A stretch of DNA of 64,000 nt from the human T2T-CHM13v2.0 reference genome, Homo sapiens. Shown in pieces: positions 23,715-54,260 of this stretch (the first letter of the stretch is position 1; each line of letters starts with the position of its first letter). The position numbers and the translations under genes are program-made. The notes beneath the pieces are model-generated. The model ran no database searches, was not told the DNA's origin, and saw nothing but the letters and a program-made list of their open reading frames with translations. Location: assembly GCF_009914755.1 (NCBI RefSeq), contig NC_060931.1. One strand, 5' to 3'.

Positions 23715-28954
<5,240 letters not shown>

Positions 28955-46211: not shown

Positions 46212-48884
<2,673 letters not shown>

Positions 48885-49584
48885 TTACACTATACAAATC
48901 TTGAATCAGCACTTAAAAGACATAAGGTCATATTTAATTTCTTCATTGTTTTCTAGATAAGGAAATTCATATTTACAAGTTATGGGACTTATCCAAGATC
49001 ATGGGCCAGGCAAGAAAATTTAAAATCAGACTGTGAAGCCAAACCTTGTTCATTACTTTTTCATTTACTCTGTGTAATTTTTGTATTTTATATGTTTCTG
49101 TCCTTAGCAATTTGCCTCTGTATTTCCACAAGAAATAAATTTCAGTTGTAATTTGAGTAGACATCTGAGTAATTATATATGAAAAATAATTTTTAAGGGC
49201 TAGAAAAGACTCATATATTAAAACATAATATAGGGACATATACAGACCTAGTCCAGTTTAAAGTTTTCCGTATGAGATGGGCATGTATATTTCAATAACT
49301 AACCTGGGTGATATAGCATGAGAATATTATAAGATTAACACAGATTTTAAAATATTGTGGCTGAATATAAGTTAGAAAAGTGTGAAATGTTAATCACACC
49401 CCTAAGAACAAACTCTAGAGATAAATTAGAAAAGTGTCAATCTCAAGAGTCCATTGAATCCAGCAAACAGAAGGGGTAGTTTAAAAAAGAAGGCAAAAAT
49501 TATATTCAAAATTGTTTCCAAATTAATTCAACTTGATATTTTTAAACTTAGGGGAAACATAATTTATGCTTCATGCTTTTCCTA

Positions 49585-49896
<312 letters not shown>

Positions 49897-51360
49897 TTAA
49901 AAAAGAAAAAGGCATGTTCAAGTCAAGTTCTCAGACAAGAGAAAGCCAGCCCCTGAGCAGCGACAATCCCAGGGGTAAATGTGGGGGGTCTTATACAGCA
50001 AATGCAAGCAGGTGGTGACTGCAAGAGGAGCAAAACTATTAGAACTTCCTACACACGAAGAGCAGTCCCAAGCATCCAGGGAAAGATGAAAAAGCTGTTT
50101 GGTTTGGAGACAGACTTTTTGTCAAATCAGTTTCCACTCATTAAGTTAGCCTTCTTGTGCTTAAAAAAGGCTGTGTCAACAGGCTGCCAGAGCCTTCTAA
50201 GAAAGAGGACAAGGAGCCCAAATCATCCAGACAACATCTGGATCTGTTCCTGTTGTTATTGTGAAAGATTCCAGGTAGGAGGTATGTGTCAGTGGCCGAT
50301 CCTAAACTAAGCCTTGAAGAAATAAGGGTAGAGAAATGAAATGGACATGGACTTGTGATTTTTTTTTTAAGTGAATAAGAGCACAATATTTCAGCATGTG
50401 CAATATCACAAACAGAGAAACAGTGGAATGTGATCACATACTCAAAGGTCCAGATTGCTTAGAAAGAGTACCTGTATGTGGAACTGACTTTTGTTTACAC
50501 TGCTCTATTGTGAGATACTATAAAGATAACCAGATAAATAAATTGCTATTGGCTCCGATAGTGTTTAGTATACTCTAAAATGTGAGCAAAAGGCAAGCCA
50601 ATGTTTTTAGATATAATTATGAATGTAAAGGTAACACATTTTGTCACAATATGTTGATAGATTCAAATCATATGCCCGAATAATCTGAATAGGCACTGCA
50701 TAGATTTACCTGCTAATTTGTTATATAATATGATTTTCCAGCTATGATCTGTAATAAATATATTCCTAAGTATAGTAAGTGTTTTAAAAAATAATAGTCA
50801 TACTAGGAAACAATTAATATCTGCTTTAAATTCCATCACAGATAAATATTTTATATGATTCTTTTAAAATGTGTTATATTTAGGTGGTCTGACTTAATAT
50901 TTTTAACAGCCAAATTGTATATGGTAACTCAGTTAAGTATTCTGCATGATATCTTTGTTGTTACATTTTGGGTGACAAGTAATAAACTCTAAAATAATGA
51001 GTCATTCTATTAGACTTCTGCTTTTTCTGTCCGCTTACATATCACACGTATCTTTATTAAAAACAGAGGTTCTTTAAAACATAAATAAAAACCACATATA
51101 ATCCTTTCTCCTATGTTTTCTTTATCAAATTAATGTTTATAGTTGGAGATAAGTTCACCAGGAGACCTTTACATTCATTTAATTATGCTGCAGTATATGG
51201 CGTGAAAACTACCAGCAGGCAAGCCTAGGCCTCCCGACTCTAAAGGCTGTTTTGTGCTTTTATTTAGAAGCTCACTAGCTGTGAAAAGTTTGTGCAGCAA
51301 CTCATCCCACTACGTGGCTCCCAGGTGTAGTCAGGTCCCGCAAGCAGCCCTGGGACATAC

Positions 51361-51489
51361 CGAACAGCCAGGGCCTCCCTGCTGGGTCGCGCTGATAGTA
51401 AGACAAGTCATTCACGCTGCGCGACCTCTCCGGGGCAGCACGGGGGCGGATGGATTTGGGCCTAGGTAATGTCCATGAGGAGCTGTCTA
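51361..51489 (-). CDS. MAGI2: Candidate alternative (cassette) MAGI2 exon, 129 nt / 43 aa
   Basis: Acceptor cttgttctcctttgtgacag and donor TTCG|gtatgt; phase 1 at both ends; open in the MAGI2 frame (VDSSSWTLPRPKSIRPRAAPERSRSVNDLSYYQRDPAGRPWLF); about 9 CpGs in 129 nt in an otherwise CpG-poor intron. Confidence 0.7.
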
Positions 51490-51838
51490 CTGTCACAAAG
51501 GAGAACAAGCCTCATTCTTGTGCTTGGTCTTTTAAGGACAAACTTATGAGTCTCTATGAATCTCTCAGTTTACAGTGCCACTATAAAAATCCATTAATCT
51601 CCACGTGGTGACATGCTGTACATTCCTATAAAGTACTGCCTGTGGCTATAACTTCATCTGCGGTTGCTAAAGGCATTAGTTTAGAGAGAATGCAAACATC
51701 CAGCTAAAGCTAATAGGAAGGTCTGGAGAAAGCAAATCAATTTTTCAAAATGGTCCAAGCTACAGACATATTTGGAAGAGCAGGCAGTTTGACAGACAAT
51801 TTTCCCTTTGAAACATCACATGCTGACAGGTATCATAC

Positions 51839-51960
51839 CTCGGAAACCTGGGGCCTGCAGGGGCTTTGTTCCAAGTTCTGTGTGGGGCATGTTATGTTGC
51901 TGTAGCTTCCTTTTTGCTTCCAGGACAGGATTTTCAAACTGTGTTCTTCTATTTATGTGG
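51839..51960 (-). CDS. MAGI2: MAGI2 internal coding exon (122 nt; end of WW2 and WW2-PDZ1 linker; probably exon 8)
   Basis: Reverse strand reads ttttcttttttag|C CAC ATA AAT AGA AGA ACA CAG TTT GAA AAT CCT...GGT TTC CGA G|gtatga = (D)HINRRTQFENPVLEAKRKLQQHNMPHTELGTKPLQAPGFR, matching MAGI2 as I recall it. Canonical AG/GT. Not in the ORF track. Confidence 0.96.
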
Positions 51961-53319
51961 CTAAAAAAGAAAATTTCAGATTAGGATAACCGTGGGGCAA
52001 AGTTATTTAAAAGACCATATGTATGGCTCTATGGAGAGCAGGTGATTAAGGGCCACCTTATCTGATTACAGTCAAGTGCCTCACCCAGCACGCGGTCAGG
52101 CTCCTGACTGGGCTGGCCTGTGTACAACACACATTTCTGTGACAAGTGCTGAGTTTTCAAAGGCTCTCTCATATGTTATTCTATTTACATTATGCATAAT
52201 TCAGCCAAAAGAACTAGAATGTGCACTTGCTTTCTGGTCTACTGTGTTCATTTGAGATGAGTTTAATATGCATGAAACTAAGTGGTCAAGAAATGAAATT
52301 TATACTGAATGGTATTGAAGAAAAGAGCATCACCTGAGCTTTGCAAAGTCCCCATATCCAACAGGATAAATGTGAGGTAAATTCATTGATAGAGTATAGC
52401 AACCAGAGTCTGCACTTTTTAGAGTTGGTCCTGGATTGAGAGACTGGGATCCAGGAGAAAGAGTTTGCAGAAGTTACAGAATACATATGTAGGACAGTTG
52501 ATGCTGAAATCAAGCAAAAGTAGAGAATTCATATTCTACATGGTGAGAGGGCAAATTTGTAGGTATCAGACGCAGAGTGGCTTGAAGCAACTGTTGCCCA
52601 GCTAAACTGAGAGCTTATAGTCCAAGCAAACTGTGAATTTCTGTATAGCAGGCTGTTTGAAATGCAGAGTTCCTTATCTGTGGGGAGAGTAGAAACCAAC
52701 AAATCTGCTTTTAGTGGTGGGCCTATGCTGCTCTTTCTCTAGGATATAAACATCCCATGAGAGGGCTGGCATATACATTGATACATAGAATTATGGCAGG
52801 CAAGCATGAAGAGGAGAGAAGGAATGGAAGAGAAACTGACAAATACTGAGTACTTAACTCTTGGCCAGTTACTATGTATAGTTTTCCTCAGTGAAGTTTC
52901 ATAACAACCCAGACTTGCATTCCAATTATTCACCTTTTAAAGGCAATGAGACTGACACATGGAGAGATCGGATTATTTGCTCTAAATCACATGTCTCGTA
53001 AGTGGAAAGGCTGGACTTGGCCGGGTTTATTTCTAAACTGAATCTCTGCACACTTTTTTCTTTTGGATATACAATTTCACATTGGCATGTGCACACACAC
53101 TTATTGTGTGTATACACCCTGCACGTCCCCAACATAAACCACTTACAGCTTCAGAAAGGAAAGGAGACAGAAGCAGCAACATCTCAACAACCAATTTCCA
53201 ATACTATGAATCAGATCATTTCAAAGCAGTTCCCAGAAACATGGTAAGTCAACCGTAAGATCTAATTCTTTCCTCACGGGAGACAGGGTAAGGTAGCTGC
53301 CTGCCCCACAGGCTCTGCA

Positions 53320-53520: not shown

Positions 53521-54114
53521 AGCTTGTATCATCATCTTAATCACCACCATTACTGTCATCATTTTTCATCCATAAGAAAGGCTTTACTGGGGAACTTCAG
53601 AAGCACTGGGACCTTGCTCTAACTGCCTTTGGTGCTGTTTAGGAAGGGAGTGCTTCTAACAGTGCTCTTTGTTAATGAAACTCATTTGTAAGAGGTTCAA
53701 AGTACAACCATCTATGTAAAATTATTTTCCCACTGGAAATAAAACGTTATTGTAATGCTCTTGTTCACCAAGGCCTTGTGCATCATGACTGTGGTGCACA
53801 GTGAACTAATAATATCTGTGCCTGTAAAGCATGTGAGCTGTAAACTCTAACACTGCCACCCTGTTTTGGAAGGACCAGAGTTTGATGCCTGTTTTCCCGT
53901 TTCTCCATTGTTACATAACTTCCTTACCAAAATCCTTTGAAACCTTCCTATTACTTAAACATATACTGTTCCTGATTTTGCCCTCACTCATTTCTGTAGC
54001 TTCACCTTTGGCTGCATCACCACATGTGCCCTCTACGTTGAACATACTTGGAGCTACTTTGATCAGTGACCCTCTATCAGACCTCTTATCTTTCCACGAG
54101 AGATTCAGTATGTA

Positions 54115-54260
54115 AATGGTGCAGCACTTGAAGCAAGACAACCTGGGTTTCAGGTGGCATCTTGGGCAAATTTCTAACTCTCTAAGCTTCAATATCTTTA
54201 TCTGTAAAATGGGGACATTAATAGCTACATCACGGGTTGCTGTGAGGATAAGAGAATTGT
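54115..54260 (+). mobile_element. MIR
   Basis: cttgggcaaatttctaactctctaagcttcaatatctttatctgtaaaatgggg. Confidence 0.75.

What the first reader, a model, noticed from the sequence alone, without database searches (positions are those of the whole stretch)
51361..51489. Hidden frame-preserving 129-nt MAGI2 exon between WW2 and PDZ1
Seen in sequence: a minus-strand acceptor (ttctcctttgtgacag) and donor (TTCG|gtatgt) bracket exactly 43 codons, phase 1 at both ends like the flanking exons, with no stop. It holds about 9 CpGs against a CpG-depleted background, which suggests constraint. It would give ...APGFR-VDSSSWTLPRPKSIRPRAAPERSRSVNDLSYYQRDPAGRPWLF-EKPLF..., absent from the canonical MAGI2 protein as I recall it. 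Inference: the insert is a basic, Pro/Ser-rich linker with an RxxS basophilic kinase-type site (RSRS), so it could be a tissue-specific regulatory module. It may already exist in predicted isoform sets; I cannot check.
Basis: partly seen in the sequence, partly recalled or inferred. Interest (0 to 1): 0.8.

Follow-up and report, generated by a model that had tools for sequence, protein, structure and literature searches.

The report
Annotated alternative MAGI2 linker exon
This is a real, in-frame alternative exon of the human scaffold gene MAGI2 that adds about 43 residues between the second WW domain and PDZ1; gene catalogues already list it, so it is ordinary, although nobody seems to have studied its conserved serine motif.

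Summary
On the minus strand, 51361-51489 is a 129-nt segment bounded by AG and GT. It is open only in phase 1 and joins the flanking MAGI2 exons in frame. It holds 9 CpGs, the only such stretch in the 64 kb window. It is not hidden. The hub's RefSeq table lists 51361-51489 and 51361-51486 as exons of other MAGI2 transcripts. These two forms come from a cagTAG tandem acceptor. Named predicted MAGI2 isoforms of placental mammals, marsupials and many birds carry the same insert. The insert evolves faster than its flanks: 14 of 43 columns are invariant, against 32 of 40 and 60 of 61. It keeps two conserved islands, T-L-P-R-P-K and R-S-[R/H]-S-V-N-D-L-S. No copy was found in another human locus or in another protein family. 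My searches found no paper that describes the exon. The most likely role is a disordered linker insert carrying a phosphorylation-type docking motif, but this is inference. It does not fit the published MAGI2 GK-ligand motif. Tissue pattern and transcript support could not be tested here. Verdict: already known, low interest.

The parts
51361..51489 (-). Alternative MAGI2 cassette exon, 129-nt form (43 codons counting the split Val codon), phase 1 at both ends
   Evidence: The hub RefSeq table lists it among 'exons of other transcripts'.
51361..51486 (-). 126-nt form of the same exon, made by the second AG of the tandem acceptor. It lacks the Val, and the junction codon becomes GAC (Asp).
   Evidence: (the incl126 join is open) and the hub RefSeq table. 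10 of the 42 orthologue isoform rows extracted also lack the Val.
51487..51492 (-). Tandem NAGNAG acceptor, cag|TAG|
51493..51510 (-). Pyrimidine-rich tract upstream of the acceptor (gcttgttctcctttgtga); pyrimidine fraction 0.76 over positions -20 to -4
51355..51360 (-). Donor gtatgt. Its crude score is 5.6, weaker than the flanking exons' donors at 7.1 and 12.5.
   Evidence: matrix recalled from memory
51455..51472 (-). Codons for conserved island 1, T-L-P-R-P-K
51401..51427 (-). Codons for conserved island 2, R-S-R-S-V-N-D-L-S (an R-x-x-S site). It contains 3 of the 9 CpGs.
   Evidence: The pattern match at the same place confirms the coordinates.
51839..51960 (-). Upstream constitutive MAGI2 exon (end of WW2 and start of the linker), ending ...GGTTTCCGAG|gtatga
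   Evidence: hub table
49695..49877 (-). Downstream constitutive MAGI2 exon (EKPLF..., start of PDZ1)
   Evidence: hub table

Best explanation
This is a genuine, already annotated alternative coding cassette exon of MAGI2. A tandem cagTAG acceptor gives 129-nt and 126-nt forms. When included, the exon lengthens the linker between WW2 and PDZ1 by 43 or 42 residues without changing the frame. These points are shown. The inserted segment is basic, rich in Ser, Arg and Pro, and probably disordered. It carries two short conserved motifs, T-L-P-R-P-K and R-S-[R/H]-S-V-N-D-L-S. I infer that the second motif is a site for a basophilic (R at -3) Ser/Thr kinase. In this reading, phosphorylation creates or removes a docking site, with 14-3-3-type binding the most likely candidate. 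That would give exon-containing MAGI2 isoforms a regulatory handle beside the WW tandem and PDZ1 that the selected isoform lacks. My confidence is about 0.9 for the exon itself and about 0.3 for the phospho-docking mechanism.
For: The annotation comes from the hub RefSeq table, which lists both forms. On orthologues, 11 of 14 candidates and 43 of 4512 candidates passed the E-value thresholds, and every one is named MAGI2; they come from placental mammals, marsupials and birds. In one search, 42 isoform rows held the insert in frame at the same junction: 28 with 43 aa, 10 with 42 aa and 4 with 40 aa. P0044 also has 43 aa. These rows are isoforms, not independent species. In the 13-row alignment, invariant columns are 32 of 40 (upstream exon), 14 of 43 (insert) and 60 of 61 (downstream exon). 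In the 18-row alignment that includes the human-identical chimpanzee fragment, 12 of 43 insert columns are invariant, among them R39 S40 S42 V43 D45 L46 S47. The insert has 7 Ser, 7 Arg and 6 Pro in 42 residues. It has no Pfam match. It falls on the disordered side of the charge-hydropathy line. The AlphaFold2 model of the 75-aa fragment has no confident fold (mean pLDDT 61, pTM 0.16). The exon and 100 nt on each side are single-copy in the genome, and no Rfam hit overlaps it.
Against: I had no transcript, junction-read or peptide data, so inclusion level and tissue are unknown. The orthologue evidence consists of predicted isoforms, which are reported only where the frame is intact; species with a broken exon would not show up. 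I saw no named reptile, amphibian or fish isoform. No orthologous DNA was available, so I could not test synonymous against non-synonymous change. The kinase and 14-3-3 reading rests on motif resemblance recalled from general knowledge. The canonical 14-3-3 mode-1 Pro at +2 is Asn here. The AlphaFold2 and charge-hydropathy results are weak evidence for disorder; the same hydropathy test also put the WW2 stretch on the disordered side.
Confidence: 0.8

Rival explanations
1. The insert is a pseudo-ligand for a guanylate-kinase-like (GK) domain. Once phosphorylated, R-S-R-pS-V-N-D-L-S would bind MAGI2's own PDZ0-GK module in cis, or the GK domain of a DLG-family protein in trans, and so switch the scaffold's conformation.
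For: The published MAGI2 PDZ0-GK motif is R-Phi-x-pS-Y-X-X-A-Psi (PMC10171801, passages and section 10). The exon motif matches at R(-3), small polar S(-2), S(0), non-Pro at +2 and +3, and small polar S(+5). It has hydrophobic residues at +1 and +4.
Against: The same paper reports a 10-fold loss for Y(+1)F and a roughly 285-fold loss for A(+4)V. The exon has Val at +1 and Leu at +4, so two of the fixed positions fail.
Confidence: 0.06
2. The exon acts mainly as a spacer. Inclusion changes only the length and flexibility of the WW2-PDZ1 linker, and the sequence itself has no specific partner.
For: 29 of 43 insert columns vary among 13 species. A 3-residue in-frame deletion is tolerated in 4 isoform rows of one bird genus. 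No fold is predicted.
Against: Two islands are invariant or nearly so from mammals to birds: T-L-P-R-P-K and R-S-[R/H]-S-V-N-D-L-S. A pure spacer would not need this.
Confidence: 0.1
3. The exon is a rarely used or non-productive splice product that prediction pipelines propagate between species. Its conservation would then reflect a non-coding role of the CpG-rich DNA, such as a regulatory element.
For: I had no expression data. All orthologue evidence is predicted protein. The CpG-rich stretch extends about 57 nt beyond the donor into the intron, to 51304.
Against: The length variants are all in frame (43, 42 or 40 aa in the 42 rows). The conservation pattern is at amino-acid level, with islands. 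Unnamed gene predictions from other genomes hold the same peptide (7 of 9 hits). RefSeq lists both acceptor forms (hub table).
Confidence: 0.04

Closest known systems
RefSeq alternative MAGI2 transcripts and predicted MAGI2 'isoform X' proteins of other amniotes
   Same: It is the same exon at the same junction, with the same two acceptor forms (hub table).
   Different: Nothing differs. This is why I rate the finding as already known.
MAGI2 isoform 1 versus isoform 2: a 14-residue in-frame insert in the PDZ2-PDZ3 linker (review PMC8428372, figure-legend passages read)
   Same: Both are in-frame alternative inserts in an inter-domain linker of the same protein.
   Different: The linker, length and sequence differ. 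The passages I read name only that insert and the alternative-start forms, not the WW2-PDZ1 insert.
MAGI1 alpha insert: 28 residues in frame upstream of PDZ3 (same review)
   Same: Both are alternative linker inserts in a MAGI paralogue.
   Different: The position differs and I found no sequence likeness. Neither the profile search nor the whole-genome searches found the MAGI2 insert in MAGI1 or MAGI3.
GK-binding repeats of SAPAP and other MAGI2 PDZ0-GK ligands, R-Phi-x-pS-Y-X-X-A-Psi (PMC10171801)
   Same: Both have an R-x-x-S core with a small polar residue at -2, no Pro at +2 or +3, and a small polar residue at +5.
   Different: The exon has Val instead of Tyr at +1 and Leu instead of Ala at +4. 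The paper found both positions critical.
14-3-3 mode-1 site R-S-x-pS-x-P (recalled from general knowledge, from no call)
   Same: Both have R at -3, S at -2 and a phosphorylatable S at 0.
   Different: The exon has Asn, not Pro, at +2. Binding has not been tested.

Membership tests
Alternative coding cassette exon of MAGI2 | AG acceptor with a pyrimidine tract, and a GT donor | tested here: met
Alternative coding cassette exon of MAGI2 | Length divisible by 3 and an open frame in the phase of the flanking exons | tested here: met
   (129-nt and 126-nt forms both open). The other two frames have stops.
Alternative coding cassette exon of MAGI2 | Present in some annotated transcripts and absent from others | tested here: met
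   The hub RefSeq table shows NM_012301.4 skipping it and other transcripts including it. I took this from the table and did not recompute it.
Alternative coding cassette exon of MAGI2 | Same insert at the same junction in orthologues | tested here: met
   placental mammals, marsupials and birds. These are predicted proteins only.
Alternative coding cassette exon of MAGI2 | Junction reads or cDNA showing inclusion | not testable with these tools
NAGNAG tandem acceptor | Two AG dinucleotides 3 nt apart at the 3' splice site, both used | tested here: met
   cagTAG. Both exon starts are in the hub table. Both 43-aa and 42-aa forms occur among bird isoforms.
MAGI2 PDZ0-GK phospho-ligand (R-Phi-x-pS-Y-X-X-A-Psi) | Arg at -3, a permitted residue at -2, Ser at 0 | tested here: met
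   R-S-R-S, compared with the motif
MAGI2 PDZ0-GK phospho-ligand (R-Phi-x-pS-Y-X-X-A-Psi) | Tyr at +1 | tested here: not met
   Val in all 15 aligned rows. Y(+1)F already costs 10-fold.
MAGI2 PDZ0-GK phospho-ligand (R-Phi-x-pS-Y-X-X-A-Psi) | Ala at +4 | tested here: not met
   Leu in all 15 aligned rows. A(+4)V costs about 285-fold.
14-3-3 mode-1 binding site (recalled consensus R-S-x-pS-x-P) | R at -3, S at -2, S at 0 | tested here: met
   The consensus itself is recalled, not taken from a call.
14-3-3 mode-1 binding site (recalled consensus R-S-x-pS-x-P) | Pro at +2 | tested here: not met
   Asn at +2 in all 15 rows, and Asp in P0044.
14-3-3 mode-1 binding site (recalled consensus R-S-x-pS-x-P) | Phosphorylation of the serine, and binding that depends on it | not testable with these tools
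   This needs phosphoproteomics or a binding assay.

The most novel reading that the evidence does not exclude
The exon gives MAGI2 an isoform-specific phospho-switch. A basophilic or AMPK/MARK-type kinase phosphorylates the invariant R-S-[R/H]-S-V-N-D-L-S. The phosphosite then recruits 14-3-3, or less likely a GK domain, next to the WW tandem and PDZ1. This would gate which partners the scaffold can hold at synapses or at the podocyte slit diaphragm. My searches found no paper that describes this motif or this insert.
Probability: 0.2. Interest if true: 0.45.

Novelty: already known. Interest (0 to 1): 0.15.

Why it matters
MAGI2 (S-SCAM) is a scaffold protein of synapses and of the kidney filtration barrier. 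An isoform-specific, conserved phosphosite-type motif in the WW2-PDZ1 linker could explain isoform-specific regulation, and variants in this exon would be missed by pipelines that use only the selected transcript. As a sequence feature, however, the exon is already in RefSeq and in predicted isoform sets of many species. What remains open is its function and its expression pattern, not its existence.

Tried and rejected
**Structure and binding**
- AlphaFold2 on the 777-aa tree-shrew protein with a 15-row alignment failed (mean pLDDT 29.4) and says nothing.
- Complex prediction tested MAGI2 residues 1-200 (PDZ0-GK) against residues 405-455 (insert) of P0004. It gave no verdict (score 0.00; the alignments were not used). 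This is not evidence either way.
- No PDB chain holds the insert. The 3 hits at E 0.3-0.5 look like chance.

**Regulation and non-coding alternatives**
- Within 400 nt of the exon there is no TGCATG, no GCATG downstream, and no PTB or CELF cluster. Tissue specificity cannot be inferred from sequence.
- Rfam over 49000-53000 gave 2 sub-threshold snoRNA-like hits, neither overlapping the exon.
- Repeat origin is rejected: the exon with 100 nt on each side is single-copy in the genome.

**Paralogues and deeper relatives**
- The human peptide against the whole genome found only itself, plus one hit at E 4.1 that contains 3 stops.
- A degenerate DNA pattern for the core motif gave 12 matches against 23 for the reversed control. 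None is on contig C3, and the two on C1 lie at 216 and 239 Mb. The MAGI1 and MAGI3 locations I compared with are recalled from memory.
- The profile search of 1.84 billion representatives gave 9 hits. Seven are short unnamed predictions holding this exon; 2 (P0052, P0053) are repeat proteins I judge spurious. No MAGI1 or MAGI3 appeared.
- I tried to name the taxon of the most divergent copy, P0054, but one search returned no names.

**Other**
I took the counts by eye from the invariant-column lists instead.

**Literature**
- The peptide strings occur in 0 papers.
- MAGI2 plus 'alternative splicing' plus 'cassette exon' gave 1 paper, which mentions only MAGI2-AS3.
- The other searches were seen as listings only. 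None of the 15 papers listed holds 'MAGI2'.
- The EMBO Mol Med paper PMC13562739 names magi2 among alternatively spliced zebrafish genes without exon detail (passages).
- I did not read any supplementary tables. Splicing atlases may list this exon there.

Full report
**Observation.** Read on the minus strand, the window shows ...gcttgttctcctttgtgacag|TAGACAGCTCC... with the first exon base at 51489, and ...GGCTGTTCG|gtatgtccca... with the last exon base at 51361. That is 129 nt. The frame starting at 51489 opens with TAG. The frame starting at 51488 has two stops. The phase-1 frame is open and reads DSSSWTLPRPKSIRPRAAPERSRSVNDLSYYQRDPAGRPWLF. The upstream exon ends ...GGTTTCCGAG|gtatga and the downstream exon starts tgtag|AAAAACCACTC.

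Joined by coordinates, skipping, the 129-nt form and the 126-nt form all give one open frame. The inclusion forms read ...APGFR-(V)DSSS...PWLF-EKPLF....

**Chance.** The exon has 9 CpGs, CpG o/e 0.75 and GC 0.61. The window as a whole has o/e 0.18 and GC 0.38. The flanking constitutive exons have 1 and 3 CpGs. Only 0.09% of all 129-nt windows reach 9 CpGs, and all of those lie in 51304-51489.

Splice signals plus an open frame are not special on their own. Among 1537 AG..GT phase-1/1 open candidates of 60-400 nt on this strand, 468 are at least 129 nt. Five of those (3 acceptors) have a donor score and pyrimidine tract at least as good as this exon. The donor scores 5.6, against 7.1 and 12.5 for the neighbouring exons. 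A weaker donor is usual for an alternative exon.

**Known status.** The hub's RefSeq table lists 51361-51489 and 51361-51486 as exons of other MAGI2 transcripts, while the selected NM_012301.4 skips them. So the exon is annotated in human.

A word-indexed search with the 42-aa translation found 11 proteins at E of 0.001 or better among 14 candidates, all named MAGI2. They include a 75-aa chimpanzee fragment identical to the human reading. A profile of eight inserts found 43 proteins at E of 0.01 or better among 4512 candidates. Again all are named MAGI2, from tree shrew, rodents, shrew, two marsupials and many birds (names are cut short in the output).

Extracting the junction region from the stored proteins gave 42 isoform rows with the insert in frame: 28 of 43 aa, 10 of 42 aa lacking the Val, and 4 of 40 aa. 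One more 43-aa copy is in a gundi protein. The 42-aa form in birds suggests that the tandem acceptor is old as well. These rows are predicted isoforms, several per species, and are reported only when the frame is intact. They therefore show presence, not absence of decay elsewhere. I saw no named reptile, amphibian or fish protein.

**Conservation pattern.** In a 13-row alignment of 5 mammals and 8 birds, invariant columns number 32 of 40 in the upstream exon, 14 of 43 in the insert and 60 of 61 in the downstream exon (counted from its invariant list). With 18 rows including the human-identical fragment, 12 of 43 insert columns are invariant.

The invariant columns form two islands, T-L-P-R-P-K and R-S-[R/H]-S-V-N-D-L-S. 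The last third of the insert is free to vary. Several variable positions are Arg or Pro codons with CpG in human. In other species they read His, Cys or Leu, which would fit CpG decay. This is inference, because I had no orthologous DNA.

**Uniqueness.** A profile search of 1.84 billion cluster representatives gave 9 hits at E of 0.001 or better. Seven are short unnamed predictions that hold this exon and read on into the intron; one of them also carries the upstream exon. Two are repeat proteins that I judge spurious. No MAGI1, MAGI3 or other family appeared. The taxon of the most divergent copy stayed unknown.

In the human genome the peptide matches only itself (E 1e-21), plus one hit at E 4.1 that contains three stops. 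A degenerate pattern for the core motif gave 12 matches against 23 for the reversed control, and none lies where I recall MAGI1 or MAGI3 to be. The exon with 100 nt on each side is single-copy, so it is not repeat-derived. No Rfam family overlaps it.

**What it encodes.** Pfam on a full-length isoform that carries the insert finds six PDZ stretches, two WW, the GK fragment and MAGI_u1. The insert-bearing 75-aa fragment matches no family. In that isoform the insert is residues 409-451, between the WW2-bearing exon and the exon that starts PDZ1.

The human insert has 7 Ser, 7 Arg and 6 Pro in 42 residues, with 8 basic against 4 acidic residues. It lies on the disordered side of the charge-hydropathy line. 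That test is weak, since it also misplaces WW2. The AlphaFold2 model of the 75-aa fragment has no confident structure (mean pLDDT 61, pTM 0.16). The larger 777-aa model failed outright (mean pLDDT 29). No solved structure contains the insert.

**Mechanism.** It is shown that this is an annotated, conserved, frame-preserving alternative exon with two acceptor forms. I infer that it adds a flexible segment whose conserved R-x-x-S-hydrophobic motif is a basophilic-kinase site serving as a phospho-dependent docking or regulatory element. 14-3-3-type binding is the most obvious candidate, since R-S-x-S fits the recalled mode-1 core, although +2 is Asn rather than Pro.

I considered a more specific idea: that the motif is a ligand for MAGI2's own PDZ0-GK module. 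The published motif is R-Phi-x-pS-Y-X-X-A-Psi. In that study Y(+1)F cost 10-fold and A(+4)V about 285-fold (PMC10171801; passages, section 10). The exon has Val at +1 and Leu at +4 in all 15 aligned rows, so it fails two fixed positions. I rate this idea at about 6%.

**Literature.** The 2021 review of MAGI proteins (PMC8428372, passages) describes for MAGI2 only the 14-residue PDZ2-PDZ3 insert and the alternative-start forms. Three peptide strings from the insert occur in 0 papers. The other searches turned up nothing that describes this exon. I saw most of them only as listings and read no supplements, so splicing atlases may still tabulate it.

**Verdict.** 'Hidden' is wrong. The feature is already known at the annotation level. 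Its function and tissue pattern remain open, and only that gives it modest residual interest.

Noticed in passing
window 51473-51475 (-), residue 6 of the insert: Human and chimpanzee read Trp (TGG) where 14 of the 15 aligned orthologue rows read Ser. The gundi protein P0044 also has Trp. This looks like a recurrent change at a non-conserved position.
   Followed up: partly
window 50148-50278 (+) and 50546-50604 (+): Weak snoRNA-like Rfam matches lie in the intron downstream of the alternative exon: SNORA51 at 24.1 bits against a gathering score of 50 (E 0.2), and snoZ267 at 23.4 against 43 (E 0.33). Both are probably chance.
   Followed up: no
window 24149-27591 (+) and 46551-48671 (+): Open frames of 127-183 aa whose translations look like LINE-1 ORF1 and ORF2 fragments (my reading by eye). 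They lie inside stretches that the hub table marks as repeats.
   Followed up: no
P0003 (tree-shrew 'MAGI2, partial', 777 aa): The precomputed Pfam list includes PF01248, and the C-terminal part is unlike MAGI2. The gene model looks like a chimera of MAGI2 with another gene.
   Followed up: no
G000:C2:200620010-200620035 (+): This is one of the 12 genome matches to the degenerate core pattern. It would read R-S-H-S-V-N-D-L, the owl and gundi variant of the motif. The match count is below the reversed control (12 against 23), so it is most likely chance.
   Followed up: no
window 53928-54239 (-): An AG-to-GT open segment of up to 312 nt has splice-like signals as good as the real exon. It lies in the RPL13AP17 region and overlaps a 134-aa ORF. 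I have no evidence that it is an exon.
   Followed up: no
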